This document shows positions 38,842 through 64,000 of a DNA stretch of 64,000 nucleotides, one piece after another. This DNA comes from Chiloscyllium plagiosum (Eukaryota). The first letter of the stretch is position 1, and every line of letters starts with the position of its first letter. Location of the stretch: NCBI RefSeq assembly GCF_004010195.1, contig NC_057717.1:103674631-103738630 (forward strand). The letters run 5' to 3'. A program made the translations under genes and the position numbers. The notes under the pieces are model-generated. The model was not told where the DNA came from, did no database searches, and was given only the letters and a program-made list of their open reading frames with translations.

Positions 38842-39045
38842 CTGGGACATCTGAGGCCGCAGGTTGATCTCCTTGAGGTTGATGGAGTGAGGCCGGAGGT
38901 TGTTGAGGAGCTGACAGAGGAGGACGCCATCTCTCAGAGCCCAGGCCAAGTCGCAGACCTGAGCGTTGGCCCAGGTCACCCTGTGGTTGGGGGGCAACAC
39001 TTTACACTCGATCAGCCAGTTGGCACACTGCCGCCAGTTCTCCAT
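38842..39045 (-). CDS. VAV1: VAV-family guanine nucleotide exchange factor, first coding exon (N-terminal half of the calponin-homology domain); most likely VAV1, VAV3 not excluded
   Basis: Translates [68 protein letters not shown] (68 codons, 204 nt), the characteristic VAV N-terminus. ATG context is GCGATGG. The exon ends at a phase-0 donor CAG|GTAGGT at the conserved VAV exon-1 boundary. Family call is near certain; the paralogue call rests on WRQ, QVC, ALRD and PH residues (VAV1-like), while [10 protein letters not shown] is VAV3-like. Confidence 0.9.
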
Positions 39046-43322: not shown

Positions 43323-46300
43323 TCAGGACCAGGAGTCAGAGTCCACACTGAGGCCGGGAGTCTGTGTCCACACTGAGGCCGGGGGTCTGTGTCCACACTG
43401 AGGCCGGGGGTCTGTGTCCACACTGAGGCCGGGAGTCAGAGTCCACACTAAGGCCGGGAGTTTGTGTCCACACTGAGGCCGGGGGTCTGTGTCCACACTG
43501 AGGCCGGGAGTCTGTGTCCACACTGAGGCCGGGGGTCTGTGTCCACACTGAGGCCAGGAGTTAGAGTCCACACTGAAGCCGGGAGTTAGAGTCCACACTA
43601 AGGCCGGGAGTTTGTGTCCACACTAAGGCCGGGAGTTTGTGTCCACACTGAGGCCAGGAGTCTGTGTCCACACTGAGGCCGGGGGTCTGTGTCCACACTG
43701 AGGCCGGGGGTCTGTGTCCACACTGAGGCCGGGAGTCTGCGTCCACACTGAGGCCGGGAGTCTGAGTCCACTCTGAGGCCGGGAGTCTGAGTACACACGA
43801 AGGCAGGGGGGCTGTGTCCACACTGGGGCCTGGAGTCAGAGTCCACACTGGGGCCGGGTGTTAGAGACCACACTGAGGCCGGGAGTTCGTGTCCACGCTG
43901 GGGCCGGGTGTCTCAGTCTACACTGAGGCCGGGAGTTAGAGACCACACTGAGGCCGGGAGTTAGAGTCACTGGTGCCGGGAGTCTGTGTCCACACTGAGG
44001 CCGGGAGTTAGAGTCCACACAGGGGCCTCGAGTCTGTTTCCACACTGAGGCCGGGAGTTAGAATCCAGATTGAGGCCAGGGGTCTGTGTCCACACTGAGG
44101 CCGGGAGTCTGCGTCCACACTGAGGCCGGGAGTTAGAGTCACTGGGGCCGGGAGTCTGTGTCCACACTGAGGCCGGGAGTCTGTTTCCACACTGAGGCCG
44201 GGAGTTAGAGTCACTGGGGCCGGGAGTCTGTGTCCACACTGAGGCCGGGAGTTAGAGTCCACACAGGGGCCTCAAGTCTGTTTCCACACTGAGGCCGGGA
44301 GTTGAATCCAGATTGAAGCCAGGGGTCTGTGTCCACACTGAGGCCGGGAGTCTGCGTCCACACTGAGGCCGGGAGTCTGAGTCCACACTAAGGCCAGGAG
44401 TCAGAGTCCACACTGAGGCCGGAATTACAGAGTCCACACTGAAGCCGGGAATTAGAGACCACACTGAGGCCGGGTGTAAGAGACCACACTGAGGCCGGGG
44501 GACTGTGCCCATACTGAGGCCAGGGGACTTTGTCCACACTGAGGCCAGGAGTTAGAGTCACTGGGGCCGGGAGTCTGTGTCCACACTGATTCCAAGAGTC
44601 TGTGTCCACACTGCCGGGAGTCTGTGTCCACACTCATTCCAAGAGTCTGTGTCCACACTGAGGCCGGGAGTTAGAATCCACACTGAGGCCGGCTGTCTGT
44701 GTCCACACTGAGGCCGGGTGTTAGAGACCACACTGGGGCCGCGAGTCTGTGTCCACACAGGGGCCGGCTGTCAGAGTCCACAATGAGGCCGGGAGTTAGA
44801 GACCACTCAGAGGCCAGGAGGTAAAGACCACGCCGTGATCGGGGGTCTGCGTCCACACGGAGGCCGGGAGTCTGCGTCCACACGGAGGCCGGGAGTTCGA
44901 GACCACGCAGAGGCCGGGGGTCTGTGTCCACACGGAGGCCGGGGGTCTGAGTACACATGGAGGCCGGGGGTCTGTGTCCACACGGAGGCCGGGGGTCTGA
45001 GTACACATGGAGGCCAGGGGTCTGTGTCCACACTGGGGCCTGGAGTCAGAGTCCACACTGGGGCTGGGAGTCAGAGACCACACTGAGGCTGGGAGTCTGT
45101 GACCACACTGAGGCCTGGAGTCAGAGTCCACTCTGAGGCCAGGAATTAGAAGCCACACTGAGGCCAGGAGTTAGAGACCACATTCAGGTTGGGAGGTAGA
45201 GACCACACTTAGGCCGGGAGATAGAGTCCACACGGAGGCCGGGAGATAGAGTCCACACGGAGGACGGGAGGTAGAGTCCACACTGAGGCTGGGAGTTAGA
45301 GACCACACTGAGGCCGGGGGACTGTGCCCATACTGAGGCCAGGGGACTTTGTCCACACTGAGGCCGGGAATTAGAGTCCACAATGAGGCCGGGAGTTAGA
45401 GTCACTGGGCCGGGAGTCTGTGTCCACACTGATTCCAAGAGTCTGTGTCCACACTGAGGCCGGGAGTCAGAGTCCACACTGAGGCCGGGGGTCTGTGTCC
45501 ACACTGAGGCCGGGAGTCTGAGTCCATACTAAGGCCGGGAGTCAGAGTCCACACTGAGGCCGGGAGGTTGAGTCCACACTAAGGCCAGGAGTCAGAACAT
45601 GAGGCCGGAATTAGAGTCCACACTGAGGCCGGAATTAGAGTCCACACTGAGGCCGGGAATTAGAGACCACACTGCGGCCGGGAATTAGAGACCACACTGA
45701 GGCCGGGGGACTGTGCCCATACTGAGGCCAGGGGACTTTGTCCACACTGAGGCCGGGAGTAGGAGTCCACACTGAGGCCGGACGTTAGACTCCACACTGA
45801 GGCTGAGAGTTAGTGTCCACACTGAGGCCGGGAGTCTCAGTCCATGCTGGGGCCGGGAGTTAGAGACCACACTGAGGCTGGGAGTTAGAGACCACACTGA
45901 GGCTGGGAGTTAGAGTCCACACTGAGGCTGGGAGTTCGAGTCCACACTGAGGCCGGAAGTCTGTGTCTACACTGAGGCCGGGAGTCTGTGTCCACACTGA
46001 GGCCGGGAGTCTGAGTCCACACTGAGGCCGAGAGTCCGTGTCCACACTGAGGCCGGGAGTCTGAGTCCATGCTGAGGCCGGGAGTTTGTGTCCACACTGA
46101 GGCCAGGAGTCTGTGTCCACACTGAGGCCGGGAGTCAGAGTCCACACTGAAGTCGGGAGTCAGAGTCCACACTGAGGCCGGGAGTCAGAGTCGACACTGA
46201 GGCCGGGAGTCAGAACATGAGGCCGGAATTAGAGTCCACACTGAGGCCGGAATTAGAGTCCACACTGAGGCCGGGAATTAGAGAGTCCACACTGAAGCCG

Positions 46301-49300
46301 GGAATTAGAGACCACACTGTGGCCGGGTAGTAAGAGACCACACTGAGGCCGAGAGTCAGAGTCCACACTGAGGCCGGGGGTCTGTGTCCACACTGAGGCC
46401 GGGAGTCTGAGTCCACACTGAGGCCGGGAGGTTGAGTCCACACTAAGGCCAGGAATTAGAGAGTCCACACTGAAGCCGGGAATTAGAGACCACACTGTGG
46501 CCGGGTAGTAAGAGACCACACTGAGGCCGGGGGACTGTGCCCATACTGAGGCCAGGGGACTTTGTCCACACTGAGGCCGGGAGTAAGAGTCCACACTGAG
46601 GCCGGAGGTTAGACTCCACACTGAGGCTGAGAGTTAGTGTCCACACTGGGGCCAGGAATCTCAGTCCATGCTGGGGCCGGGAGTTAGAGACCACTCTGAG
46701 GCTGGGAGTTAGAGTCCACACTGAGGCCAGGAGTTAGAGTCCACACTGAGGCTGGGAGTTAGAGTCCACACTGAGGCCGGGAGTCAGAGTCCACACTGAG
46801 GCCGGGAGTCAGAGTCCACACTGAGGCCGGAAGTCTGTGTCCACACTGAGGCCAGGAGTTAGAGTCCACACAGGGGCCTCGAGTCTGTTTCCACACTGAG
46901 GCCGGGAGTTAGAGTCCAGATTGAGGCCAGGGGTCTGTGTCCACACTGAGGCCGGGAGTTAGAGTCCAGATTGAGGCCAGGGGTCTGTGTCCACACTGAG
47001 GCCGGGAGTCTGCGTCCACACTGAGGCCGGGATTCTGTGTCCACACTGAGGCCGGGTGTCTGTGTCCACACTGAGGCCGGGAGTTAGAGTCCACACTGAG
47101 GCTGGGAGTTAGAGTCCACTCAGGGGCCTCGAGTCTGTTTCCACACTGAGGCCGGGAGTTAGAATCCACACAGGGGCCTCGAGTCTGTTTCCACACTGAG
47201 GCCGGGAGTTAGAATCCAGATTGAGGCCAGGGGTCTGTGTCCACACTGAGGCCGGGTGTCTGCGTCCACACTGAGGCCGGGAGTTAGAGTCACTGGGGCC
47301 GGGAGTCTGTGTCCACACTGAGGCCATGAGTTAGAGTCCACACAGGGGCCTCTAGTCTGTTTCCACACTGAGGCCGGGAGTTAGAGTCACTGGGGCCGGG
47401 AGTCTGTGTCCACACTGAGGCCGGGAGTTAGAATCCAGATTGAGGCCAGGGGTCTGTGTCCACACTGAGGCCGGGAGTCTGCGTCCACACTGAGGCTGGG
47501 AGTCTGAGTCCACACTAAGGCCGGGAGTCAGAGTCCACACTAAGGCCGGAATTAGAGAGTCCACACTGAAGCCGGGAATTAGAGACCACACTTAGGCCGG
47601 GTGTAAGAGACCACACTGAGGCCGGGGGACTGTGCCCATACTAAGGCCAGGGGACTTTGTCCACACTGAGGCCAGGAGTTAGAGTCACTGTGGCCGGGAG
47701 TCTGCGTCCACACTGAGGCCGAGAGTTAGAGTCACTGGGGCTGGGAGTCTGTGTCCACACTGATTCCAAGAGTCTGTGTCCACACTGAGGCCGGGGGTCT
47801 GTGTCCACACTGAGGCCGGGAGTCTGAGTCCATGCTGAGGCCGGGAGTCTGAGTCCACACTGAGGCTGGGAGTTTGTGTCCACACTGAGGCCAGGAGTCT
47901 GTGTCCACACTGAGGCCGGGAGTCAGAGTCCACACTGAGGTCGGGAGTCAGAGTCCACACTGTGGCCGAGAGTTAGAGTCACTGGGGCTGGGAGTCTGTG
48001 TCCACACTGATTCCAAGAGTCTGTGTCCACACTGAGGCCGGGGGTCTGTGTCCACACTGAGGCCGGGGGTCTGTGTCCACACTGAGGCCGGGGTCTGTGT
48101 CCACACTGAGACCTGGAATTAGAGTCCACACTGAGGCCGGGAGTCTGTGTCCACACTGAGTCCGAGAGTCTGTGTCCACACGGAGGCCGGGAGTTAGAGT
48201 CCACACAGGGGCCTCGTGTCTGTGTCCATGCTGAGGCCAACAGACTGTGTCCACACTGAGGCTGGGAGTTAGGGTCACTGGGGCCGGGGGTCTGTGTCCG
48301 CACTGAGGCCGGGAGTTAGAGTCACTGGGGCCGGGAGACTGTGTCCACACTGAGTCCGAGAGTCTGTGTCCACACGGAGGCCGGGAGTTAGAGTCCACAC
48401 AGGGGCCTCGTGTCTGTGTCCACACTGAGGCCAACAGACTGTGTCCACACTGAGGCCGGGAGTCAGAGTCCACACTGAGGCTGGGGAGTCTGTGTCCACA
48501 CTGATTCCAAGAGTCAGAGTCCACACTGAGGCCGGGAGTCAGAGTCCACACTGAGGCCGGGAGTCTGTGTCCACACCTGATTCCAAGAGTCAGAGTCCAC
48601 ACTGAGGCCGGGAGTCNNNNNNNNNNNNNNNNNNNNNNNNNNNNNNNNNNNNNNNNNNNNNNNNNNNNNNNNNNNNNNNNNNNNNNNNNNNNNNNNNNNN
48701 NNNNNNNNNNNNNNNNNNNNNNNNNNNNNNNNNNNNNNNNNNNNNNNNNNNNNNNNNNNNNNNNNNNNNNNNNNNNNNNNNNNNNNNNNNNNNNNNNNNN
48801 NNNNNNNNNNNNNNNNNNNNNNNNNNNNNNNNNNNNNNNNNNNNNNNNNNNNNNNNNNNNNNGCCGGAATTAGAGTCCACACTGAGGCCGGGAATTAGAG
48901 AGTCCACACTGAAGCCGGGAATTAGAGACCACACTGTGGCCGGGGGACTGTGCCCATACTGAGGCCAGGGGACTTTGTCCACACTGAGGCCGGGAGTAAG
49001 AGTCCACACTGAGGCTGGACGTTAGACTCCACACTGAGGCTGAGAGTTAGTGTCCACACTGGGGCCGGGAGTCTCAGTCCATGCTGGGGCCGGGAGTTAG
49101 AGACCACACTGAGGCTGGGAGTTCGAGTCCACGCTGAGGCTTGGAGTTAGAGTCCACACTGAGGCCAGAAGTCTGTGTCTACACTGAGGCCGGAAGTCTG
49201 TGTCCACACTGAGGCCAGGAGTCTGTGTCCACACTGAGGCCAGGAGTCTGTGTCCACACTGAGGCCGGGGGTCAGAGTCCACACTGAGGCCGGGAATCCG

Positions 49301-50830
49301 TGTCCACACTGAGGCCGGGATTCTGTGTCCACACTGAGGCCGGGATTCTGTGTCCACACTGAGGCCGGGAGTCAGAGTCCACACTGAGGCCGGCTGTCAG
49401 AGTCCACACTGAGGCCAGGAGTTAGAGTCCACACAGGGGCCTCGAGTCTATGTCCACACTGAGGCCGGGAGTTAGAATCCAGATTGAGGCCGGGGGTCTG
49501 TGTCCACACTGAGGCCGGGATTCTGTGTCCACACTGAGGCCGGGAGTCAGAGTCCACACAGAGGCCGGGAGTCAGAGTCCACACCGGGGCCGGCTGTCAG
49601 AGTCCACACTGAGGCCGGGAGTTAGAGACCACACAGAGGCCAGGAGGTAAAGACCACGCGGAGGCCGAGGGTCTGAGTACACACGAAGGCAGGGGGTCTG
49701 TGTCCACACTGGGGCCGGGTGTTAGAGACCACACTGAGGCCGGGAGTTAGAGTCACTGGGGCCGAGAGTCTGTGTCCACACTGAGGCCGGGAGTTAGAGT
49801 CCACACAGGGGCCTCGAGTCTGTTTCCACACTGAGGCTGGGAGTTAGAATCCAGATTGAGGCCAGGGGTCTGTGTCCACTCTGAGGCCGGGAGTCAGAGT
49901 CCACACTGAGGCCGGGAGTCAGAGTCCACACTAAGGCCGGGAGTCAGAGTCCACACTGAGGCCGGGAGGTTGAGTCCACACTAAGACCAGGAGTCAGAAC
50001 ATGAGGCCGGAATTAGAGTCCACACTGAGGCCGGAATTAGAGTCCACACTGAGGCGGGGAATTAGGCCGGGGGACTGTGCCCATACTGAGGCCAGGGGAC
50101 TTTGTCCACACTGAGGCCGGGAGTAAGAGTCCACACTGAGGCTGGACGTTAGACTCCACACTGAGGCTGAGAGTTAGTGTCCACACTGGGGCCGGGAGTT
50201 AGTGTCCACAGTGGGGCCAGGAATCTCAGTCCACACTGGGGCCAGGAATCTCAGTCCATGCTGGGGCCGGGAGTTAGAGACCACACTGAGGCTGGGAGTT
50301 CGAGTCCACACTGAGGCCGGAAGTCTGTGTCTACACTGAGGCCGGGAGTCTGTGTCCACACTGAGGCCGGGAGTCCGTGTCCACACTGAGGCCGGGAGTC
50401 AGAGTCCACACTGAGGCCGGGAGTCAGAGTCCATGCTGAGGCCGGGAGTCTGAGTCCACACTGAGGCCGGGAGTCTGTGTCCACACTGAGGCCAGGAGTC
50501 TGTGTCCACACTGAGGCCGGGAGTCCGTGTCCACACTGAGGCCGGGAGTCAGAGTCCACACTGAGGCCGGGAGTTAGAGACCACACTGAGGCCAGGAGTC
50601 TGAGTCCATGCTGAGGCCGGGAGTTAGAGACCACGCTGAGGCCGGGAGTCTGAGTCCACACTGAGGCCGGGAGTCTGAGTCCATGCTGAGGCCGGGAGTC
50701 TGAGTCCACGCTGAGGCCCAGAGTCAGAGTCCACACTGAGGCCGGGAGCCTGAGTCCACACTGAGGCCGGGAGTCTGAGTCCACACTGAGGCCGGGAGTC
50801 TGAGTCCATGCTGAGGCCGGGAGTCCACAC
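43323..50830. repeat. ~7.5-kb satellite/minisatellite, 25-bp unit (GTCCACACTGAGGCCGGGAGTCTGT and variants), roughly 300 units, with an internal gap
   Basis: Tandem periodicity is directly visible. It accounts for all the WTQTPGLSVDTDSRPQCG-type ORFs. Confidence 0.97.
48617..48862. other. Assembly gap (N) inside the satellite
   Basis: Run of N. Confidence 1.
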
Positions 50831-53300: not shown

Positions 53301-53539
53301 GAATTAAATTGAATTAGCTTTATCTTCACTCATAGTCGTGTGTGTACAGTGAAATGTTTATCAGTGACCACTTACAGCACCATCTTATGTACAGAGTACT
53401 AGGTATAATCCTTAGTTACAGAATAGAGGATTTAGGAAAATGGTTACAGCACAGCTATACACAGTATGATCAGAGGTCAGAAACACAAGAAGCAAAGTTA
53501 AAAAGACAAAGCATCACGTTCTCTCTGCAGCAGACCAAC

Positions 53540-53843
53540 ACAGCGGGCCTCCTGACTGCTGTTACACTGGGCCACAGTCCAGGTTCGATCCAACCCTCGG
53601 GTGTCTGTGTGGGGTTTGCACATTCGCCCCGTGGGTTTCCTCCCACAGTCCAAAGATGTGCAGCTTAGGTGGATTGGCCGTGCTACATTATGCCGTAGTG
53701 TCCAGCCTATTAACACAGGAAATGCAGAGTGGGTCTAGGTCGGTGTGGACTAGATGGGCCGAATGGCCTGCTTCCACACTACAGGGATCGAAGGCTGGAA
53801 TCGAACCCGGGTACCCAGCGCCGTGAGGGAGCAGTGCTAGCCA
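53540..53843. mobile_element. Degenerate HE1-type SINE (+) abutting an inverted HE1 tRNA head (-)
   Basis: V-domain and tail at 53600-53790; GGCTGGAATCGAACCCGGG...CCACTGAGCCACCG at 53793-53843. Confidence 0.8.
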
Positions 53844-54097
53844 CTGAGCCACCGCATCGCCCCCTTGGTGAGTGCCTTGTGCAGAAGTGAAGAGATTGTG
53901 AGGGAATTCCAGATGTGGAGTGGTGGGCGGTTATGTCCCAGCAGCTATCCAAGTCCTGCAGCTCATACGCGGCACATCCAGCCCGACAGCCTCACCTTGG
54001 TGAAGTGGGAACTGTGCCCGTGATTGTCTGACTCCGGCCAGGTGATGCCCTGACACGTCCCTGGTTGCCCTTTAAGAATGGCTTGCCTCACCCCTGC

Positions 54098-54550
54098 GTG
54101 ACTCAGCAGAAAAAGCAAAACCGTTGCGAGGGGGAATGACGGCCCGTAAAACGAGCAGGCTGTGCCTCCAGAACCCTCCTTACCTCTGTCTCCCTGAGCG
54201 ATCGCTCCCGATGACTGAGTGTAGAGAGTAGGGCAGCCTGCAGACAATGGAGTAAATGGTCAGGCAATAGCTGGAACTCCATGGGTCCTGGGTGCCACTC
54301 CCTGGGCTAAGGCACTACAGTGACTCAGCATTCCTCTTCGCCCCGAAGGGATTCTGCACTGTCACGGGCTCGTTCATTGTCCCCGAACACAACAGTGACT
54401 CAGCATTCCTCACGCATTGTCACTTGGACACGAATGAAAAGGCAGGAATTCTGCACTGTCATGGTTAGTTCATTCACTCGGTGCCCAGTAATGAGTCAAC
54501 TAACTGATTGTGACAGATTTCCCTCCCGGGCTAGAGGCACATGACAGTGC
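54098..54550. promoter_or_regulatory. Cluster of antioxidant response elements (NRF2/NF-E2-sMAF sites, RTGACnnnGC)
   Basis: GTGACTCAGCA at 54098, 54320 and 54395 (+). GTGACAGTGCA at 54355-54365, GTGACAATGCG at 54413-54423 and ATGACAGTGCA at 54452-54462 (-). ATGACAGTGC at 54541 (+). AP-1 site TGAGTCA at 54492. GCLM is an established NRF2 target. Confidence 0.85.
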
Positions 54551-54676: not shown

Positions 54677-54730
54677 TGACGTGGGTGTGCCTCAGTGATG
54701 CCTTAGAGCAGGAATTCCCTGTTTATAAAC
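54677..54730 (+). promoter_or_regulatory. Putative core promoter of the GCLM-like gene (TATA box with CRE-like, CACCC and NF-kB-like motifs)
   Basis: TATAAA at 54724-54729, ~135 bp upstream of the ATG with no intervening ATG; TGACGTG at 54677; GGGTGTG at ~54683; GGAATTCCC at 54711. Confidence 0.6.
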
Positions 54731-54861: not shown

Positions 54862-54892
54862 ATGACTGAAGACAAGAACGAAATCTTTAATC
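54862..54892 (+). CDS. GCLM: GCLM-like, start of first coding exon (MTEDKNEIFN...), truncated by an assembly gap
   Basis: First ATG downstream of the TATA box at 54724, in good Kozak context (GCAAACATGA), and directly upstream of the exon-2 equivalent. The conserved exon-1 motif (HLQTGNLLNWG) is not visible and would fall in the N run. A candidate donor CAG|GTTTGT lies just after the gap at 55406/55407. Confidence 0.6.
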
Positions 54893-55392
54893 NNNNNNNN
54901 NNNNNNNNNNNNNNNNNNNNNNNNNNNNNNNNNNNNNNNNNNNNNNNNNNNNNNNNNNNNNNNNNNNNNNNNNNNNNNNNNNNNNNNNNNNNNNNNNNNN
55001 NNNNNNNNNNNNNNNNNNNNNNNNNNNNNNNNNNNNNNNNNNNNNNNNNNNNNNNNNNNNNNNNNNNNNNNNNNNNNNNNNNNNNNNNNNNNNNNNNNNN
55101 NNNNNNNNNNNNNNNNNNNNNNNNNNNNNNNNNNNNNNNNNNNNNNNNNNNNNNNNNNNNNNNNNNNNNNNNNNNNNNNNNNNNNNNNNNNNNNNNNNNN
55201 NNNNNNNNNNNNNNNNNNNNNNNNNNNNNNNNNNNNNNNNNNNNNNNNNNNNNNNNNNNNNNNNNNNNNNNNNNNNNNNNNNNNNNNNNNNNNNNNNNNN
55301 NNNNNNNNNNNNNNNNNNNNNNNNNNNNNNNNNNNNNNNNNNNNNNNNNNNNNNNNNNNNNNNNNNNNNNNNNNNNNNNNNNNNNNNNNNNN
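54893..55392. other. Assembly gap (500 N) within GCLM-like exon 1
   Basis: Run of N. Confidence 1.
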
Positions 55393-55663
55393 GTCTATCA
55401 CACCAGGTTTGTGTTATTGACAGAGCTCTGGGCTCCACTTCCTAATTCACTCTATCTCTTTCTCCTTACTTACTTGCCCTCCTATTGACCAAGATTCCAA
55501 TTATATGTCCCCATATCTCGCAAAGGGTCTCCACAAGCCAGCGGTGCTTGATAATGCCTCCTGGGACACTGAACATGCTATATAAATGCAGGTTGATGTT
55601 GTTACTCTGGGGTGGCCCATCTCTCCACCTTTCGCTACCAAGCCCCTCTGATCTCTTTTCCAG

Positions 55664-55735
55664 GTCCTGGATTGTCTCAAGGCTGCTTTGTGTGACTGGG
55701 GTTCAAAGTGCAACTCTGATCGACCGGAAGGGAAG
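55664..55735 (+). CDS. GCLM: GCLM-like exon 2
   Basis: Polypyrimidine tract and TTTTCCAG| acceptor; VLDCLKAALCDWGSKCNSDRPEGK; |GTGAGT donor; phase 0-0. Aligns by eye with mammalian GCLM LHDCIQKTLNEWSSQINPDLVR. Confidence 0.85.
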
Positions 55736-55859
55736 GTGAGTCTTCATCCTTGGCTACCATGCATCCCAGGCTCTGCTCAGAACTGCAGTGACCTCTCGGG
55801 ACGCTGTGTTCCGATAAGACGCAATGTCAACTTAGGAGAAATCAATCTGCCCTCGCATT

Positions 55860-56165
55860 TTAGATTAGATTAGATTCCCTACAGTGTGGAAACAGGCCCT
55901 TCGGCCCAATAAGTCCACACCGACCCTCTGAAGACTAACCCACCCAGACCCATTTCCCTCTGACTAATGCATCTAACAGTACGGGCAATTTAGCATGGCC
56001 ACTTCACCTGACCTACACATCATTGGATTGTGGGAGGAAACCGGAGCATCCGGAGGAAACCCACGCAGACACGGGGAGAATGTGCAAACTCCACGCAGAC
56101 AGTCCCCCAAGGCTGGAATTGAACCTGGGTCCCTGGTGCTGTGAGACAGCAGTGCTAACCACTGA
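55860..56165 (-). mobile_element. HE1-type SINE in GCLM-like intron 2
   Basis: Reverse-complement match with a (TTAGA)n tail. Confidence 0.88.
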
Positions 56166-56526
56166 CCTTCCCACCTCAACACCATAATCGCTGCCCCCAC
56201 TTTAGTGTCATTGCCAATTGTTTATTGACCCTCATTGGGATGGGTCATTATTGGCAAAGCTAACGTTAGTAATCCTTCCTTCCTGCGATTCACACCTCAT
56301 CGTTTACTCCCTTACTTGGACAAATAAGCTGGAGCCTCTGGCTGGGAATATCTCAGGCTTTGTACCTGAGAGATCTTCATCTTTTGGGTCCCCCCCCATA
56401 TCTGAGGAAGGATGTTCTGGCAAAGGAGGGAGTGCAGAGAAGGTTAACCAGACTGGATTCCTGGGATCAGGATTAGAGTGGTGCTGGAAAAGCTCAGCAG
56501 GTGAGGCAGCATCCGGGGAGCAGGAA

Positions 56527-56562
56527 AATCGACGTTTCGGGCATAAGCCCTTCATCAGGAAT
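56527..56562 (-). ncRNA. Minimal hammerhead ribozyme motif (Penelope-derived), in GCLM-like intron 2
   Basis: Minus strand reads ATTC-CTGATGA-A-GGGC-TTAT-GCCC-GAAAC-GTC-GATT; core intact, one mismatch in stem I. Confidence 0.65.
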
Positions 56563-57963
56563 GGGATGGCAGGACTGACATAAGAAAACAGACTGGATCA
56601 GTTTAGGATTCTATTTGCCGGAGTCTTGAAGATTGAGGTGGGGGTGATCTCATAGAAACCTGTGAAATGCTAACAGGCCAAGACAGGGGGAACATGGGAA
56701 GGATGTTCCCAATGACCATGTAGAGTCAAGAACCAGCAGGTCATGGTCTGAGGATACAGGGTAGGCCATTTGGGACTGAGCTGAGAACTGTCTTCGCCCA
56801 GCGAGAGGGGGGAGGGGGGGGTGGTCTGAGGCTTTCTCTGCTACAGGAAGCAATTGAAATCAAAGCACTGAAGATTTGTGAGAAGGAGTTAGATATAGTT
56901 CTGAGGGCTAAAGGAAGAAAGGAGAACAGGGGACTGAGTTGGATGGTTAGCCATGATCCTGATGAATGGCACACCAGGTTTGAAGGGCCGGTTCTTGTTT
57001 TCAGTGTTTAATCTCTCCCGATCATAGATCTCCTCTGTTTCCCCAGTGGATCGCTGCCAGTCTCAGGCCCACAGCTGGGAAAATTGAATCAGCCACGATC
57101 CTATTGTATGCCTGGGAGGGCTTACCACAACTAGACACAGGAGGGGTGGACCTGAGAGAAGTCATTTCCCCTTGACCCTTGACCCTGCCTTCTCCACCCT
57201 CTGATCATCAGCTCTCACGCTGATTGGTGGAGCAATCGATCACTGAGCATCCCTTGACGACATTTCATTGGCTCACCCCTAGCCAGCATTGAGGGTCCAC
57301 CAGCCTTCCCTGATTGGATAGTGGACCTGTTCCCTGGCCTTGGATTGACTGAGATGTTGTAAAGAGACCAGAGGCACCTGCAGTATTTGGCTTTCACTCC
57401 CACCCCTCTGGGGCTCACGTTCCACCTCTCCATGGCGTTGGCTGTTTCTTGGGTATATTTTTAATCTCTAAGCCACCTCATCCTCCCACCCGGTTTAATG
57501 CCGTCTGCAAGCTCAGATAGCTGGGCTCCAAGCACTGAGCGCTGTGCTAAGATCACCAAAGTCCCACTCCCTCATTAGAGAGAGGGGTAACTGTTTAAAC
57601 CTGGGGCTCACCACACCTTAGGGAAGGGGTGAGGTTGAGATGACAGGATGTTCACAGCCACCCCAGCAGACATGGGCATTGAACCTATGCTGTCAGAGTC
57701 ACTTTGACCATCACAATCCAGTCATCCAGCCAACTGAGCTAACCGATCAATCACTGCCCATCGCTCACAAAAAGGCCTGTTTATTTCTAAGCCTCGTTTC
57801 CTTGTCTATCTCTAACCATGAGTAAGAGAAAGACTAAAGATAAGAATTCAAAAGCATTCGATCTCTTTATTTGGTTGGTTGTTATTCTGTTTAACATCGG
57901 TTTAGTTATTAACACTGCCTTTTTATTTATCTCCCGCGTCTCTCTACTGACCAGTTTCACCAG

Positions 57964-58048
57964 GCGTTACCCGAGCACCTGGTCTGTAACCTGATTCAAC
58001 CGACAGAGAGGATTGACCCTGATGAGAGAGAGGATATCCGGATATCAG
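57964..58048 (+). CDS. GCLM: GCLM-like exon 3
   Basis: CAG| acceptor; ALPEHLVCNLIQPTERIDPDEREDIRIS plus G; |GTAGGT donor; 85 nt, phase 0-1. Matches GCLM ...EKINPDEREEMKVS. An in-frame alternative acceptor 9 nt upstream (CCAG ending 57954) would add FHQ. Confidence 0.9.
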
Positions 58049-58505
58049 GTAGGTGCTCCATCAGGGAGAGGCACTGTCCGCCTAGTTACAGAGCTCGCGA
58101 ATCAAGGGCTGCTATTGACAGGGACAAGAGGCATTCCATCCACTGAGCTAACCATTAACACTGGGCAAAGGTGAAACACATCAGTCCTCCATCTTCAGGA
58201 GGAGTGGCACAGTTACCATCAGAAATGGGAACAGGATGAGGCCATTCAGCCCCTCAGGCCTGCTCTGCCATTCAATAGGATCACCGCTGATCGTGCCCTT
58301 TCCCTGGAACCCTGGATTCCCTGAATGGTCAGGAATCTATCTCATCCTTAAATATACAGAAGGGCTCTGCCCCCACCGCTCCCTGTGGCAAGGTGTTCCA
58401 AAGTCTCCCAGCCCTCAGAGAGAAGATGTTCCTCCTCAGCTCAGGCTTACATTGGTGCCCCGTGATTCTGAGACTGTGCCCCAATCCGTGACTCTCCCTA
58501 TCACT

Positions 58506-59109
58506 GTCACCTCCTCCAGCCCCTACATCCCCTCCCTATCTCTGTAAACCTCCTCCAGCCTCTACACCCCCTCCCTATCTCTGTAACCTTCCCCAGCACC
58601 TACACCCCCTCCCTATCTCTGTAACCTTCCCCAGCACCTACACCCCCTCCCTATCTCTGTAACCTTCCCCAGCACCTACACCCCCTCCCTATCTCTGTAA
58701 CCTTCCCCAGCACCTACACCCCCTCCCTATCTCTGTAACCTTCCCCAGCACCTACACCCCCTCCCTATCTCTGTAACCTTCCCCAGCACCTACACCCCCT
58801 CCCTATCTCTGTAACCTTCCCCAGCACCTACACCCCCTCCCTATCTCTGTAACCTTCCCCAGCACCTACACCCCCTCCCTATCTCTGTAACCTTCCCCAG
58901 CACCTACACCCCCTCCCTATCTCTGTAACCTTCCCCAGCACCTACACCCCCTCCCTATCTCTGTAACCTTCCCCAGCACCTACACCCCCTCCCTATCTCT
59001 GTAACCTTCCCCAGCACCTACACCCCCTCCCTATCTCTGTAATCTCCTCCAGCCCCTACACCTCCTCCCTATCTCTGTCACCTCCTCCAGCCCCTACACC
59101 CCCTCCCTA
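58506..59109 (+). repeat. 38-bp minisatellite (TACACCCCCTCCCTATCTCTGTAACCTTCCCCAGCACC) in GCLM-like intron 3
   Basis: Near-identical units recur every 38 bp (58563, 58601, 58639...) and run into an N gap. Degenerate units (CCCTATCTCTGTAACCTCCTCCAGCCCCTAC, PYLCNLLQPY) resemble an L2-type LINE C-terminus. Confidence 0.93.
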
Positions 59110-59900
59110 NNNNNNNNNNNNNNNNNNNNNNNNNNNNNNNNNNNNNNNNNNNNNNNNNNNNNNNNNNNNNNNNNNNNNNNNNNNNNNNNNNNNNNNNNNN
59201 NNNNNNNNNNNNNNNNNNNNNNNNNNNNNNNNNNNNNNNNNNNNNNNNNNNNNNNNNNNNNNNNNNNNNNNNNNNNNNNNNNNNNNNNNNNNNNNNNNNN
59301 NNNNNNNNNNNNNNNNNNNNNNNNNNNNNNNNNNNNNNNNNNNNNNNNNNNNNNNNNNNNNNNNNNNNNNNNNNNNNNNNNNNNNNNNNNNNNNNNNNNN
59401 NNNNNNNNNNNNNNNNNNNNNNNNNNNNNNNNNNNNNNNNNNNNNNNNNNNNNNNNNNNNNNNNNNNNNNNNNNNNNNNNNNNNNNNNNNNNNNNNNNNN
59501 NNNNNNNNNNNNNNNNNNNNNNNNNNNNNNNNNNNNNNNNNNNNNNNNNNNNNNNNNNNNNNNNNNNNNNNNNNNNNNNNNNNNNNNNNNNNNNNNNNNN
59601 NNNNNNNNNNNNNNNNNNNNNNNNNNNNNNNNNNNNNNNNNNNNNNNNNNNNNNNNNNNNNNNNNNNNNNNNNNNNNNNNNNNNNNNNNNNNNNNNNNNN
59701 NNNNNNNNNNNNNNNNNNNNNNNNNNNNNNNNNNNNNNNNNNNNNNNNNNNNNNNNNNNNNNNNNNNNNNNNNNNNNNNNNNNNNNNNNNNNNNNNNNNN
59801 NNNNNNNNNNNNNNNNNNNNNNNNNNNNNNNNNNNNNNNNNNNNNNNNNNNNNNNNNNNNNNNNNNNNNNNNNNNNNNNNNNNNNNNNNNNNNNNNNNNN
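59110..59900. other. Assembly gap (N) after the 38-bp minisatellite
   Basis: Run of N. Confidence 1.
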
Positions 59901-60365
59901 CTCATAATTTTGTAAACCTCTATAAGGTCACCCCTCAGCCTCCGACGCTCCAGGGAAAACAGCCCCAGCCTGTCCAGCCTCTCCCTATAGCTCAAACCCT
60001 CCAACCCTGGCAACATCCTTGTAAATCTTTTCTGAACCCTTTCAAGTTTCACAGCATCTTTCCGATAGGAAGGAGACCAGAATTGCACGCAATATTCCAA
60101 TAGTGGCCTAACCAATGTCCTGTACAGCCACAACATGACCTCCCAATTCCTGTGCTCAATACTCTGACCAATAAAGGAAAGCATACCAAACGCCTTCTTC
60201 ACTATCCTATCTACCTGCGACTCCACTGCCTGCACTCCAAGGTCTCTTTGTTCAGCAACACTCCCTAGGACTTTACCATTAAGTGTATAAGTCCTGCTCA
60301 GATTTGCCTTTCCACAATGGAGCACCTTCCAATTTTCTAAATTAAACTCCATCTGGCACTCCTCA
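59901..60365 (-). mobile_element. CR1 (HER1-like) LINE fragment
   Basis: LYRTLVRPLLEYCVQFWSPSYRKDAVKLERVQKRFTRMLPG. Confidence 0.92.
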
Positions 60366-60503
60366 AAGATAGGGAGGGGGTGTAGGGCCTGGAGGAGGTT
60401 ACAGAGATAGAGAGGAGTGCAGGGCTGGAGGGGTTGACTGAGATAGGAATCTGTTTACTTTAATTGCTTGTACTTCCTGACCTCATATTTCTCCTTCCCA
60501 CAG

Positions 60504-60560
60504 CCAAACTGTTCATCTGTCAATCTGACTTAAGGACTGTTAAGGAGGCGGTGATGTGTG
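60504..60560 (+). CDS. GCLM: GCLM-like exon 4
   Basis: CTCCTTCCCACAG| acceptor; (A)KLFICQSDLRTVKEAVMC; |GTAAGT donor; phase 1-1. The AKLFI motif is typical of GCLM. Confidence 0.92.
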
Positions 60561-61627
60561 GTAAGTGAGATTGCCAGTTGGGAGAACCATAAGAGAGGGG
60601 TCTGTCCTCTGTCTGTTTTGTGTGTCTGGGACTGTCAGAGACATTGACATTACAACTGAGCTCTTTACTATGAATTTCCCAGAATCTGCAGGATTTGCCT
60701 GAGATTTCTCTTTGAGATGCTGTTGATAACGGTGTACATGGTCAAGACAATGTCTCTTCAGCCTTCCCTCCAGAGTTGAGCACAGGGTTTAACCTCCCTG
60801 TCCAGTGCACTGCTGGGAGAGGGCTACATTGCAGCTGGTGCTGGGAAATTATACCAAGGTGTTCACCCACAGCTCCCATCCAACTGCTCCTGGATAACAG
60901 GCAGCAGAGTCACCATCTCAATGTGAACCCAGAACTCGCTTTTACCCCTGGGCCGCATTCATGACCTGACACCTCTTCACACCGGGCCCTTTGCTGTGTC
61001 TGGGATCCTGCTGTGCACAGGCGGGCTACTGTGGTTGCCTGGGAAAACGCAGAGAAAAGGTCGTGGATATGGCATAAAGTTCTGCTGTGCAACCTCTCTT
61101 GTCCGGTGACCGTTACCTTCAACGGGCTGAATGGCCTCCGTCGGGCCAATCATGACTCCTTGAGGGTCCCTCAGCACATGTCCCAGATCCTCGCTGAAGG
61201 TTAGAAATGGTTCTCCTGTTCCAGCACCTTATTGGGCCAGCAGTGTTCCCTCCAACCTCAGCCTCCATGAGCATCCTCCTCAGCTGTGGGTGCTCCGACC
61301 CCAGAGGAATCCGCTGCCACTCACCTTAGCAATCACCCTGTGTTGTGCGGTTGCCAGCAAGTCCTTGGAAATCTCCTCCTAAATGTATCAAGAATGGTGG
61401 GGGGAGGGGTTCAGTTACAGATTCTCCCCCTCAGCATGGACCCCCTCCAAATGTAATTCTGGTGGGTCCTAAACTCTGGTGTTCACTGTCAAAATATGTG
61501 GTGCTGGAAAAACACAGCAGGTCAGGCAGCATCCGCAGAGCAGGAGAGTCAATGTTTTAAGCATAAGCCCTGTTCACCATCCACCAACGTGCAACTTCCC
61601 TTAATCTCAGGGGTCTGTTCACCATCA

Positions 61628-61950
61628 TCATAGAATCCCTACAGTGTGCAAACAGGCCCTTTAGCCCAACGGGTCCACACCGACCCTCCAAAGAGTAACC
61701 CAGCCATTCCCCTACCCTTACCCCTGACTAATGCACCGAACCTGAACACAATGGGCAATTTAGCATGGCCAATTCACCTGACCTGCACATCTTTGGATTG
61801 TGGGAGGAAACCGGAGCACCCGGAGGAAACCCACGCAGACACGGGGAGAATGTGCAAACTCCACACAGACAGTCGCCCGAGACTGGAATCGAACCCAGGT
61901 TCCTGGTGCTGTGAGACAGCAGTGCTAACCACTGAGCCACCATGCCGCAC
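61628..61950 (-). mobile_element. HE1-type SINE in GCLM-like intron 4
   Basis: Reverse-complement, full length; explains most of ORF 61646-62359. Confidence 0.88.
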
Positions 61951-62040
61951 AGGTTGGGCAACTAAAGATCCAACTGACTTGTCATTCCGAATTCAGGAAG
62001 CATGGAATTACAGAGGGCCTTTTTCCCTTTCCAATTACAG

Positions 62041-62243
62041 CCTGCTCGGAGCTCGGGGTCAGTCAGCTGGATTCGGTCATTCTCTCAGTTGTGGCCCTGT
62101 CGGAGGAGAACCGGCCAACTCTGGAGGACCTGATGCCTTACTGGAAGGAACTGGAGGTCTTGGTCCAAGGGCAGAAGGTTGCATCCATCGGAGTCTCAGA
62201 CTTGGACCGGGAAGTGCTGGAGGCCTTGTGCCAACACGCTCAG
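62041..62243 (+). CDS. GCLM: GCLM-like exon 5 (aldo-keto-reductase-like fold)
   Basis: TTTCCAATTACAG| acceptor; (A)CSELGVSQLDSVILSVVALSEENRPTLEDLMPYWKELEVLVQGQKVASIGVSDLDREVLEALCQHAQ; |GTATGC donor; 203 nt, phase 1-0. Carries GCLM motifs LGVxQLDSVI, PYWxELE and IGxSDLD. Exons 2-5 join into one open frame. Confidence 0.95.
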
Positions 62244-62779
62244 GTATGCTCCCCACCCCTACACCCCACACACACCCCTCCCCACTCACCCCGGTTTCTC
62301 TTCCGTCACCATTCTCCCGAAGCCTTGTTGCATTTACAGCTCCCCAATTCCTTACCTAGGTGGATATACTCCATCACCGGTGAGGACTTCAGTCAAAGCT
62401 CAGCATGTGTCCCTTTCCAGAGTGTAAACTCTCGCCTGAGCATCCCCTGCATTACTGAGGGACTGCTGCACTGCCAGATATGCTGGGTTTCTGATGAGGT
62501 GTGAAATCCAGGACCTCCTTGGCCTGAGTAATGATGCCACTGGGAGATGAACAGCCACATTCACCTTGACCAGTGTTTGTTCCTCTCTCAACATCGCCAA
62601 CAGAGTGAGTGATCACATCACCGTCTGCTGCTGCACTGTCCCTTCATTAAACATCGAGGATTCCAGAATGACAGACAGAGCCACCCACGTCAGGCTGACT
62701 CCAGGTTCAATCCCTGATCTGACCGCACTGTTCATCAGGTGCAATGGCAGCCGCAGAACCAAAACAGCTTAAAATCGTT

Positions 62780-63765
62780 GTGTCTCTGTGTGTGAGTGAG
62801 TGTATGAATGTGTGTGACTGTCTGTGTGAGAGAGTGTGTGTGCGCACATGTGTGAGTGTATGTATGTGTATGCATGTGTGCCTCACTGTACATATACGTG
62901 TCTATGTGGGCAAGTGTGTGTACGTGTGTATGTATGTGTGTCTGTGCATTCCTGTATGTACATGCAGATGCATATGTGTCCATGTGTATGTATCAGTGAG
63001 TCTTGTGCATGCATGTGTGTCTGTGCATGCATATATGTGTGTGCAAGTGTGTAGAGTGTTGTGTTTGGGAGTGTACAGACAGTGGTGTGTGATTGTATAG
63101 TGGGTGTGCACATGTATGTGAATGTGTGTCAGCAAGTGTGTAAAGTGTTGTGTAAGTGTTGGTGTGTGTGGGTGCATGTGTATGCATGCCTGTGTGAGTG
63201 ATTGTGTGCTTGTGCGTGAGAGTGCGTGTGTGTCTGTGTGTATGAGTGTGGATGTGTGAGAGAGTGTGCATGCATCTGTGTGTGTGAGGACTGTTTGTGT
63301 GTTTGCACGAGTGTGTGTGTATATTTGTATATGTGTGTGTATATGCATGTGTGTCTGACTATGCATATGCCTGTCTATGTGGGTATGTGTGTGCACATAT
63401 GCGTGTGTGTCTGTGCATGCATTTGTATATGTTCGTGTGTATGTGTCGACGAGTCTGTGTGCATGTATGTGTGTCTGTGTATGCATATATGTATGTGCGT
63501 TTATGTAGTGTGCATACAAGTGTGTGTGTGCAAGTGTGCAGAGTGTGTTGTGTGTGGGAATGTGTAGTGTGTGTGTGAACAAGTGGGGTGAGAATGTGTA
63601 GTGCTTGTGCACATGTATATGAGTGTGTGTGTGTGTATGTGACCAAGTATGTAAAGCTTGTGTGAGTGTCTGTGTTTGTGTGAGCGTGTGACAGAGAGAG
63701 GGTGTGTGTGTGTGTGTGAGAAAGAGAGAGAGAGAGTGTGTGTGTATGTATGTGTGTGAGTATGT
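62780..63765. repeat. ~1-kb degenerate (GT)n microsatellite in GCLM-like intron 5
   Basis: Directly visible; source of the HT-rich and VC-rich ORFs. Confidence 0.95.
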
Positions 63766-64000
63766 AGTGTTGATGTGGACTGAGATTCAGTGTAACACAT
63801 GTTGTAATTGAATAAGCCTGCATATTCTCTCTTATCAAGTCCCCACTCGGAGCAGGAAATATTGAATCCATCCACACCCTCTGTCAACAGGAAGGGTGTG
63901 AAGGCAATCAGAGAGGAGCAGATAAATATGAGAGAAATAAATCCGCAGAGAGAGAGAGAGAGGATAGAGACTGAGTTAACATTCCTCACGGAAAAATTCT

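What the first reader, a model, noticed from the sequence alone, without database searches (positions are those of the whole stretch)
54862..62243. Divergent GCLM next to VAV: candidate second GCLM paralogue (ohnologue) not present in mammals
Seen: intact exons with canonical splice sites and the GCLM exon phases and sizes (85-nt and 203-nt exons). By eye against my recollection of human GCLM, exons 2-5 are only about 45% identical, which seems low for a slowly evolving shark orthologue; conserved LYQWAQ has become LCQHAQ. Established: mammals have a single GCLM on chromosome 1p, the same arm as VAV3, while VAV1 lies in the paralogous 19p13 region. Inference: if the neighbour is VAV1, this gene is a retained whole-genome-duplication copy of GCLM, giving cartilaginous fishes two modifier subunits, one apparently highly inducible.
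Basis: partly seen in the sequence, partly recalled or inferred. Interest (0 to 1): 0.8.

Follow-up and report, generated by a model that had tools for sequence, protein, structure and literature searches.

The report
Second GCLM gene beside shark VAV1
This shark locus holds the first five exons of a second, fast-evolving copy of the glutathione-synthesis regulator GCLM, lying head-to-head with VAV1; sharks and rays keep it alongside the normal GCLM, no other group in the protein collections searched shows it, and it is probably a leftover of the early vertebrate genome duplications.

Summary
The window carries the ATG and exons 2-5 of a GCLM-type gene (72, 85, 57 and 203 nt, all AG/GT, no stop). 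Exon 1 is cut by an N run, and exons 6-7 lie beyond the window.

It matches the RefSeq model "glutamate--cysteine ligase regulatory subunit-like", found in 16 named elasmobranch species. Thirteen of these also have a listed canonical GCLM. Exons 2-5 are 46% identical to human GCLM.

The neighbour is exon 1 of VAV1, on the minus strand 15.8 kb away. The shark VAV falls inside the VAV1 clade, not VAV3. GCLM-like and VAV1 share a chromosome in 13 of 13 species with data.

In the ML tree GCLM-like is sister to all canonical gnathostome GCLM (98/90). An elasmobranch-only duplication is rejected (AU p=0.001). A chondrichthyan-stem duplication is not rejected (p=0.09).

A 2R ohnologue is therefore favoured by tree and synteny but not proven.

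Three perfect GTGACTCAGCA (ARE-type) sites lie 460-765 bp upstream of the ATG. Binding to GCLC and inducibility are untested.

The gene models are public but automatic. My searches found no paper on them.

The parts
38842..39045 (-). VAV1 exon 1 coding part (ATG at 39045; 68 codons of the CH domain), head-to-head with the GCLM-like gene. No other VAV exon is in the window.
   Evidence: Motif scan. 99% identical to Stegostoma 'proto-oncogene vav-like' P0270. tblastn finds exon 1 only. Pfam CH domain. VAV1 clade.
43332..50825 (.). 25-nt G+C-rich satellite, about 301 copies, filling half of the 15.8-kb space between the two start codons.
   Evidence: Tandem Repeats Finder. GC 0.53-0.61.
54098..54405 (+). 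Cluster of three perfect GTGACTCAGCA sites (ARE/MARE-type core) at 54098, 54320 and 54395. The last two lie in a duplicated module with 75-nt spacing. A fourth TGAGTCA is at 54492.
   Evidence: 3 matches in 64 kb, all here, against 0.10 expected; 0 of 100 shuffles reach 3. Repeat structure. TRE list.
54722..54729 (+). TATA-like TTTATAAA, 140 nt upstream of the ATG. Motif only.
54862..54892 (+). GCLM-like exon 1, from the ATG (MTEDKNEIFN). The remaining ~92 nt expected from relatives are hidden by the N run 54893-55392.
55664..55735 (+). GCLM-like exon 2 (72 nt, phase 0/0). It is skipped in an annotated Rhincodon isoform, and the aligned exon is skipped in canonical GCLM isoforms.
57964..58048 (+). 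GCLM-like exon 3 (85 nt). An alternative acceptor 9 nt upstream (exon start 57955) would add 3 residues, as in Hemiscyllium isoform X1.
60504..60560 (+). GCLM-like exon 4 (57 nt).
62041..62243 (+). GCLM-like exon 5 (203 nt), encoding ACSELGVSQLDSVI...LCQHAQ.

Best explanation
Positions 54862-62243 are the 5' five exons of an intact second GCLM gene. RefSeq names it 'glutamate--cysteine ligase regulatory subunit-like'; I call it GCLM-like here. Sharks, rays and skates carry it in addition to the canonical GCLM.

It lies head-to-head with VAV1. It arose before elasmobranchs and chimaeras split. Most likely it is the gnathostome-stem (2R) ohnologue of GCLM, kept next to VAV1 as canonical GCLM is linked to VAV3, and later lost in bony vertebrates.

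It encodes a non-catalytic protein with an aldo-keto-reductase-like fold. The protein keeps the GCLM family core, so it most likely still pairs with the catalytic subunit GCLC. In that role it would tune GCLC's affinity for glutamate and ATP and its feedback inhibition by glutathione. Its surface has changed and it evolves about four times faster than the canonical copy.

Its promoter carries an ARE-type motif cluster, which suggests control by NRF2/small-Maf.

Shown: gene structure, paralogy, linkage to VAV1, conservation pattern, and the motifs. Inferred: WGD origin, GCLC binding, kinetic role, and inducibility.
For: **Gene structure.** The exons are intact with AG/GT borders and no stop.

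**Two genes per genome.**
- GCLM-like proteins are listed from 16 named elasmobranch species.
- 13 of the 16 also have a listed canonical GCLM. Stegostoma and Rhincodon share one identical record.
- In 11 of the 11 species with an unambiguous contig length, the canonical gene sits on a different, larger contig.

**Neighbour.**
- VAV exon 1 is at 38842-39045(-).
- Shark 'vav-like' proteins fall inside the VAV1 clade, across a 100* branch from VAV3, as sister to Callorhinchus VAV1.
- PDB scores: SH2 domain 170.7 bits to VAV1 against 118 to VAV2; C-terminal SH3 109 bits against 69.

**Trees.**
- 64-row ML tree: (invertebrates, (hagfish, (GCLM-like, (chondrichthyan canonical, bony-vertebrate canonical)))).
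- Supports: 98/90* for canonical gnathostomes excluding GCLM-like, and 90/87 for gnathostomes excluding hagfish.
- AU test rejects an elasmobranch-stem duplication (p 0.00098).

**Paralogon context.**
- The Vav review's figure legend shows a lamprey 'Vav1/3-like' node and places 2R before cartilaginous fish (PMC6562523).
- Human 1p22.1 reads BCAR3, MIR760, DNTTIP2, GCLM (PMC4891075).
- SH2D3A, which I recall as the BCAR3 paralogue, lies in the block flanked by C3 and VAV1 in other vertebrates.

**Function.**
- Pfam PF00248 scores above its cut-off.
- AlphaFold model: pLDDT 90.2. All listed structural neighbours are aldo-keto reductases or annotated reductases.
- Of 117 positions near-invariant in 31 canonical proteins, 72 are kept in at least 90% of 13 GCLM-like proteins. 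These include the Cys-Cys pair (13 of 13). 16 positions are replaced in at least 90%.
- 22 columns are invariant across 44 GCLM sequences, invertebrates included.
- Nine unnamed 285-aa skate-cluster members sit whole on 1.05-1.12-kb contigs. Given multi-kb introns, these can only be spliced transcripts (inference).
- Three GTGACTCAGCA sites lie 460-765 bp upstream of the ATG.
Against: **Origin.**
- The AU test does not reject GCLM-like plus all chondrichthyan canonical GCLM as one clade. This corresponds to a chondrichthyan-stem duplication. Results: p 0.088 with dlnL 10.8 and p 0.087 with dlnL 3.9.
- The GCLM-like stem is long (0.54-0.65), so attraction towards the root is possible.
- The hagfish position is unstable. 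It groups with canonical GCLM at 87/74 in the 43-row tree but falls outside all gnathostomes in the 64-row tree. No lamprey sequence was available.

**Distribution.**
- No GCLM-like was found in Callorhinchus, so a further loss or a missed gene must be assumed.
- None is listed for Scyliorhinus (2 species), Mustelus, Carcharodon or Cetorhinus, although their canonical GCLM and VAV1 are listed.

**Synteny gaps.**
- Linkage of canonical GCLM to VAV3 in sharks was not tested.
- The human positions VAV3 1p13 and VAV1 19p13, and the BCAR3/SH2D3A paralogy, are recalled, not tested here.

**Function.**
- The W of LYQWAQ is conserved in hagfish, crinoid, starfish and tick but replaced in all 13 GCLM-like proteins. 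A changed or lost interaction cannot be excluded.
- No RNA data for this species could be laid, so expression of this copy is not shown.
Confidence: 0.7

Rival explanations
1. Small-scale (non-WGD) duplication of GCLM on the chondrichthyan stem. The copy landed beside VAV1 by chance and then diverged fast, and its basal position in the tree is a long-branch artefact.
For: AU tests do not reject a GCLM-like plus chondrichthyan-canonical clade (p 0.088; p 0.087). The GCLM-like stem is long and the clade evolves about 4 times faster: shark-ray identity is 59-65% against 88-92% for canonical. The gene is seen only in elasmobranchs.
Against: The ML trees put canonical chondrichthyan GCLM with bony-vertebrate GCLM, excluding GCLM-like, at 98/90* and 91/83, under a site-heterogeneous model. 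The copy sits exactly beside VAV1. I recall VAV1's closest ohnologue, VAV3, as sharing a chromosome arm with canonical GCLM in human. The BCAR3-GCLM and SH2D3A-VAV1 neighbourhoods mirror each other. Chance insertion at this spot is possible but unparsimonious. This scenario still needs a loss in chimaeras (rejects a later origin).
Confidence: 0.25
2. The gene is a true old paralogue but no longer a GCLC modifier. It has taken a new partner or role, or acts as a competitor of canonical GCLM.
For: 16 of 117 canonical-invariant positions are replaced in at least 90% of GCLM-like proteins. These include W to H/other in LYQWAQ, a W that is also conserved in 4 of 5 outgroups. Evolution is fast.
Against: 72 of 117 canonical-invariant positions and all 22 family-wide invariant columns are kept. 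These include the Cys-Cys pair, the NQVNL.SCCV.PP and IQLLTH.D blocks, and the C-terminal W...W.LRYS...RG.I..KGY. The reading frame has stayed open in every order sampled across the shark-ray split.
Confidence: 0.15
3. It is the only GCLM of this genome (the 1:1 orthologue, merely divergent), or it is a decaying pseudogene.
For: The window's own genome could not be searched. Exon 1 is mostly hidden by Ns and exons 6-7 are outside the window.
Against: Hemiscyllium ocellatum is 92% identical to the window over exons 2-5. It has both genes on different chromosomes, 33.3 Mb against 116.5 Mb. Chiloscyllium has a canonical GCLM that is 43.8% identical to the window. Exons 2-5 have intact splice sites and no stop. 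Full-length orthologues exist in 16 named species.
Confidence: 0.02

Closest known systems
Canonical vertebrate GCLM (glutamate-cysteine ligase modifier/regulatory subunit)
   Same: Homologous over the full length: E about 1e-80 and 45-52% identity. Same length (about 275-285 aa). Same Pfam PF00248 match. Same invariant core, including the Cys-Cys pair. Exon-2 borders and the last intron fall at the same alignment positions. I recall that mammalian GCLM is likewise ARE-regulated.
   Different: It is a separate locus on another chromosome, beside VAV1. It lies outside the clade of all canonical gnathostome GCLM. It evolves about 4 times faster. 16 canonical-invariant positions are replaced, for example LYQWAQ to LCQHAQ. 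It was seen only in elasmobranchs.
RefSeq/UniRef models 'glutamate--cysteine ligase regulatory subunit-like' of elasmobranchs (e.g. Hemiscyllium ocellatum P0002)
   Same: This is the same gene. Identity is 98.6% on exon 5 and 92% over exons 2-5. The neighbouring VAV1 is the same.
   Different: The window comes from a different, closely related shark. Those records are automatic predictions with a generic '-like' name. My literature searches found no study of them.
Aldo-keto reductases (AKR superfamily, PF00248)
   Same: The fold is related. Foldseek gives probability 1.0 and E about 5e-8 to AKR structures. phmmer gives E 4e-6 to an alpha-keto amide reductase.
   Different: Only a partial match: TM about 0.37 and 17-21% identity. 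I recall that GCLM-type proteins are non-catalytic; this was not examined residue by residue here. No solved GCLM was found in the PDB by sequence.
Other 2R ohnologue sets of the same paralogon (VAV1/VAV2/VAV3; SH2D3A/BCAR3/SH2D3C)
   Same: GCLM-like is linked to VAV1. Canonical GCLM is next to BCAR3 and, by my recollection, shares human 1p with VAV3. SH2D3A lies in the block flanked by C3 and VAV1.
   Different: For GCLM only one copy survives in bony vertebrates. The second copy is retained only in elasmobranchs, as far as sampled.

Membership tests
GCLM family (GCL modifier subunit) | Full-length sequence homology to GCLM proteins | tested here: met
   canonical GCLM hits at E 1e-70 to 1e-80 covering 92-99% of the query; 375 cluster representatives at E<=1e-10.
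GCLM family (GCL modifier subunit) | Aldo-keto-reductase-like fold | tested here: met
   Pfam PF00248 scores 34.1 bits against a cut-off of 24. AlphaFold pLDDT is 90.2. All listed Foldseek hits are AKRs or annotated reductases, probability 1.0 but TM only about 0.37.
GCLM family (GCL modifier subunit) | Family-invariant residues, including the paired cysteines | tested here: met
   22 invariant columns across 44 sequences, including C196 and C197. The CC pair is present in 13 of 13 GCLM-like proteins. These residues lie in exon 6, outside the window, so they were checked in orthologues only.
GCLM family (GCL modifier subunit) | Shared intron positions with canonical GCLM | tested here: inconclusive
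   Exon-skipping and alternative-end isoforms place the exon-2 borders and the last intron at the same alignment positions. No canonical genomic DNA was available for the other introns.
GCLM family (GCL modifier subunit) | Binds GCLC and changes its kinetics | not testable with these tools
No complex prediction was run.
1:1 orthologue of mammalian GCLM | Groups with bony-vertebrate GCLM and is the only copy | tested here: not met
   It lies outside canonical gnathostome GCLM at 98/90*. A canonical copy coexists in 13 of 16 named species.
2R/1R ohnologue pair | Duplication dated between the cyclostome split and the chondrichthyan/osteichthyan split | tested here: inconclusive
   The ML topology fits. 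An elasmobranch-stem origin is rejected, p 0.00098. A chondrichthyan-stem origin is not rejected, p 0.087-0.088. The hagfish position is unstable.
2R/1R ohnologue pair | The copies lie on different chromosomes within paralogous segments that hold other ohnologue pairs | tested here: inconclusive
   Different contigs in 11 of 11 species with unambiguous lengths, and GCLM-like shares a contig with VAV1 in 13 of 13. Linkage of canonical GCLM to VAV3 or BCAR3 in sharks was not testable. The human order comes from passages and from recall.
VAV1 (neighbour gene) | Groups with VAV1 rather than VAV2 or VAV3 | tested here: met
   inside the VAV1 clade across a 100* branch from VAV3. No VAV2 sequence was in that tree; the SH2 and SH3 domains score far higher to VAV1 than to VAV2 chains.
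NRF2/sMaf (ARE)-regulated gene | Functional antioxidant response element in the promoter | tested here: inconclusive
   Three perfect GTGACTCAGCA sites lie 460-765 bp upstream of the ATG, against 0.10 expected in the whole window. The looser core TGACNNNGC is not enriched window-wide: 37 found against 32 expected. Binding and induction were not tested.

The most novel reading that the evidence does not exclude
The jawed-vertebrate ancestor had two glutamate-cysteine ligase modifier subunits from 2R, and elasmobranchs still run this two-modifier system. One is a slow-evolving housekeeping GCLM. The other is a fast-evolving GCLM2, driven by NRF2/ARE, that gives the GCL holoenzyme different kinetics or feedback sensitivity under stress. 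Bony vertebrates, probably chimaeras, and perhaps lamniform and carcharhiniform sharks lost it independently from the SH2D3A-VAV1 interval.
Probability: 0.3. Interest if true: 0.6.

Novelty: new member of a known kind. Interest (0 to 1): 0.45.

Why it matters
Glutathione synthesis is treated as a one-catalytic, one-modifier system in vertebrates. A conserved second modifier would change that picture in three ways:
- it shows the ancestral jawed vertebrate probably had two;
- it provides a natural variant for dissecting which GCLM surfaces matter for GCLC regulation;
- it adds a marker (GCLM-like next to VAV1, against GCLM with BCAR3 and VAV3) for reconstructing the 1p/19p paralogon.

It also warns that 'GCLM' expression or knock-down studies in sharks and rays must distinguish two genes.

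It is one more case of an ohnologue kept in cartilaginous fishes and lost in bony vertebrates. That pattern is known, so the surprise is moderate.

Tried and rejected
- **Whole-genome search:** no genome is held for this window. GCLM loci could not be counted in the window's own assembly.
- **Six-frame Pfam scan of long stretches:** I used short motif scans instead. The first set, for DH/SH2/SH3-type motifs, found no VAV exon. The second found exon 1.
- **tblastn with full-length VAV1:** only exon 1 is in the window.
- **Earlier findings of this scan:** nothing for this place or for 'GCLM'.
- **RNA evidence:** no RNA holder listed. Expression in this species stays open.
- **PDB by sequence:** no solved GCLM, only distant AKRs.
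- **Pfam on long intronic and intergenic ORFs:** no family above its cut-off.
- **Literature:**
  - 'gclm'+'elasmobranch': 0 papers.
  - 'gclm'+'ohnolog': 0 papers.
  - 'gclm'+'shark': 56 papers, 15 listed, none about a shark GCLM by title or abstract.
  - 'glutamate-cysteine ligase'+'cartilaginous fish': 1 paper, on Treg evolution.
  - 'SH2D3A'+'VAV1'+'TRIP10'+'19p13': 0 papers.
  - 'SH2D3A'+'VAV1'+'BCAR3'+'VAV3': 4 papers, on SH2 domains or other topics and not on synteny (listing only).
- **Rejected ideas:** processed pseudogene (the gene has introns); sole orthologue (a canonical copy exists in relatives); neighbour being VAV3 or VAV2.

Full report
**What is in the sequence**

The window is eukaryotic, with three N runs: 48617-48862, 54893-55392 and 59110-59900. 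On the + strand an ATG at 54862 opens MTEDKNEIFN. It is cut after 31 nt by the second N run.

Four further exons have AG/GT borders:
- 55664-55735, 72 nt
- 57964-58048, 85 nt
- 60504-60560, 57 nt
- 62041-62243, 203 nt

Joined in a script they give 139 codons without a stop. tblastn with related proteins finds these five exons and nothing for the last two. The gene therefore runs off the window's end.

**What gene it is**

Exon 5 alone retrieves five proteins, all named 'glutamate--cysteine ligase regulatory subunit-like'. They come from Hemiscyllium (99%), Rhincodon (82%) and Heterodontus (73%).

The full-length Hemiscyllium protein P0002 then retrieves two tiers.
- Upper tier, 345-634 bits for the full-length named proteins: '-like' proteins of sharks, rays and a sawfish, plus an unnamed cluster that one search shows to be skates.
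- Lower tier, at or below 288 bits: the ordinary 'glutamate--cysteine ligase regulatory subunit' of all vertebrate classes, including sharks and rays.

In all, 16 named elasmobranch species have a GCLM-like protein. Thirteen of them also have a listed canonical GCLM.

An exhaustive HMMER scan of 1.84 billion cluster representatives shows no further GCLM-like-type cluster outside elasmobranchs. The hits at 50% identity or more that I looked up were canonical vertebrate proteins, a Mobula isoform or hagfish.

Measured identities for window exons 2-5:
- 92.1% to Hemiscyllium GCLM-like
- 43.8% to hemiscylliid canonical GCLM
- 46.0% to human isoform X1

Human isoform X1 has an alternative last exon, which does not touch exons 2-5.

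**The neighbour**

A motif scan found [23 protein letters not shown]... on the minus strand. This is 38842-39045, a complete first coding exon. It is 99% identical to Stegostoma 'proto-oncogene vav-like' and matches Pfam CH domains. No other VAV exon is in the window.

The two genes are head-to-head, with 15.8 kb between their ATGs. Half of that space is a 25-nt satellite of about 301 copies.

In a tree of 24 full-length VAV proteins the four elasmobranch sequences lie inside the VAV1 clade. They are separated from VAV3 by a 100* branch and are sister to Callorhinchus VAV1 (85), which is the position expected for orthologues. That tree had no VAV2. Against PDB chains, however, the SH2 domain scores 170.7 bits to VAV1 and 118 to VAV2. 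The last SH3 scores 109 against 69. The neighbour is VAV1.

**Linkage in other species**

The databases give the length of the contig on which each protein is encoded.
- Hemiscyllium
- Rhincodon
- Stegostoma
- Heterodontus
- Heptranchias
- Pristis
- two Mobula species
- Hemitrygon
- Narcine
- Amblyraja
- Leucoraja
- Rhinoraja

Pristiophorus has no contig data and is left out. Canonical GCLM is on a different, larger contig in all 11 species with an unambiguous record. Stegostoma and Rhincodon share one identical protein record whose longest contig also differs. Equal length is a proxy for 'same chromosome'. It says nothing about distance.

**Age of the duplication**

The 43-row ML tree (LG+C20+F+G4) makes GCLM-like a 100/100 clade on a long stem. 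It lies outside a group of hagfish plus canonical gnathostomes (87/74).

The 64-row tree dropped the partial Eptatretus row and added 8 canonical elasmobranch proteins and 14 unnamed invertebrate-like representatives. It gives (outgroups, (hagfish, (GCLM-like, (chondrichthyan canonical, bony-vertebrate canonical)))). Supports are 98/87* for vertebrates, 90/87 for gnathostomes and 98/90* for canonical excluding GCLM-like.

AU tests:
- GCLM-like held with elasmobranch canonical only: rejected, p 0.00098.
- GCLM-like held with all chondrichthyan canonical: not rejected, p 0.088 and 0.087.

The duplication is therefore older than the elasmobranch-chimaera split. The best tree dates it to the gnathostome stem. 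A chondrichthyan-stem event with long-branch attraction remains statistically open.

**Synteny argument**

The Vav family review shows a lamprey 'Vav1/3-like' node and places 2R before cartilaginous fish (figure legend only, PMC6562523). On that reading VAV1 and VAV3 are 2R sisters.

A table row in PMC4891075 lists human 1p22.1 as '...BCAR3, MIR760, DNTTIP2, GCLM'. Two passages of bioRxiv 10.1101/2024.05.16.589954 state that C3 and VAV1 flank GPR108/RDH8/TRIP10/SH2D3A in non-avian sauropsids, mammals and amphibians. A figure legend of PMC7768046 lists the gene names of its synteny figure, ending 'GPR108, TRIP10, SH2D3A, VAV1'.

Three points are recalled and were not tested here:
- BCAR3 and SH2D3A are paralogues.
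- VAV3 is at 1p13.
- VAV1 is at 19p13.

Together these give mirror-image neighbourhoods: BCAR3-GCLM...VAV3 against SH2D3A-[GCLM-like in sharks]-VAV1. This is what a whole-genome duplicate with later loss in bony vertebrates predicts. I could not read beyond the window to see whether SH2D3A follows GCLM-like.

**What it probably does**

Fold:
- Pfam places GCLM-like, shark canonical GCLM and human GCLM alike in PF00248, above the cut-off.
- An AlphaFold model from a 44-sequence alignment has pLDDT 90.2.
- All its listed structural neighbours are aldo-keto reductases or annotated reductases, at probability 1.0 but TM about 0.37.
- No GCLM structure is in the PDB by sequence.

Conservation:
- Of 117 positions near-invariant in 31 canonical gnathostome proteins, 72 are kept in at least 90% of 13 GCLM-like proteins, 16 are replaced in at least 90%, and 29 are mixed.
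- The kept set includes TGN, W150, G.SD.D, NQVNL.SCCV.PP with both cysteines, IQLLTH.D and the C-terminal W...W.LRYS...RG.I..KGY.
- The replaced set includes the W of LYQWAQ, which is W in 4 of 5 outgroups.

Rate: GCLM-like proteins differ about four times more than canonical ones between the same species pairs. For example, Heptranchias against Hemitrygon is 63.5% for GCLM-like and 90.1% for canonical.

Transcription: nine unnamed 285-aa members of the skate cluster sit whole on contigs of 1046-1118 nt. Given the intron sizes seen here, these must be spliced transcripts (inference).

I conclude that it is a functional modifier-type subunit under purifying selection on the core, with a remodelled surface. 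GCLC binding is inferred, not shown.

**Promoter**

GTGACTCAGCA occurs three times in the window, all at 54098-54405, against 0.10 expected; 0 of 100 shuffles reach 3. Two of the three lie in a locally duplicated module. A further TGAGTCA lies at 54492 and a TTTATAAA at 54722. The looser TGACNNNGC pattern is not enriched over the whole window: 37 found against 32 expected.

**What stays open**

- The window's own genome could not be searched.
- No RNA reads could be laid.
- No paper on a second GCLM in cartilaginous fishes turned up in four searches. The gene models themselves are public automatic annotations.

**Verdict**

This is a real, conserved second GCLM gene of elasmobranchs beside VAV1. 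It is probably a retained 2R ohnologue (about 0.65-0.7), and otherwise an old chondrichthyan-stem duplicate (about 0.25). I rate it a new member of a known kind, of moderate interest.

Noticed in passing
window 43332-50825: A 7.5-kb G+C-rich satellite with a 25-nt unit (about 301 copies, 78% matches) lies between the VAV1 and GCLM-like promoters. An N run (48617-48862) lies inside it.
   Followed up: partly
window 58494-59109: A 38-nt tandem repeat (16 copies, 96% matches) in GCLM-like intron 3 runs straight into the N run 59110-59900.
   Followed up: no
window 59902-60454 (-), also 3144-3572 (+) and 6549-6743 (-): Open frames with a shared '...RFTRMLPGL.GLSY.ERL..LGL.SLE.RR.RGDLIEVYKIM' type tail. 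From recall this resembles the C-terminal part of a LINE ORF2. Pfam gave no hit.
   Followed up: partly
window 1333-1692, 8435-8824, 53470-53990, 55939-56220, 61634-61990 (both orientations): A repeated element of about 250-350 nt, whose frames read '...LDCGRKPEHPEETHADTGRMCKLHTDS...', occurs at least five times, including in GCLM-like introns 2 and 4. It is probably a SINE family.
   Followed up: no
window 62700-63800: A long TG/CA-rich low-complexity stretch lies in intron 5. Its frames consist of C, V, H, T and Y.
   Followed up: no
window 57953-57963: Two acceptor AGs lie 9 nt apart at exon 3. Hemiscyllium isoform X1 carries three extra residues at this junction, which suggests both are used.
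   Followed up: partly
related proteins: No GCLM-like protein is listed for Scyliorhinus torazame, S. canicula, Mustelus asterias, Carcharodon carcharias or Cetorhinus maximus. Their VAV1 and canonical GCLM are listed. This may be a loss in Carcharhiniformes plus Lamniformes, or a gap in annotation.
   Followed up: no
related proteins: Skipping of exon 2 (22-24 residues, in frame) is annotated in canonical GCLM of human, Callorhinchus and Chiloscyllium, and in Rhincodon GCLM-like. This is an alternative form shared by both paralogues.
   Followed up: partly
window 38000-38499: The CpG observed/expected ratio drops to 0.06 just inside VAV1 intron 1, against 0.3-0.85 in the surrounding 500-nt bins.
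   Followed up: no
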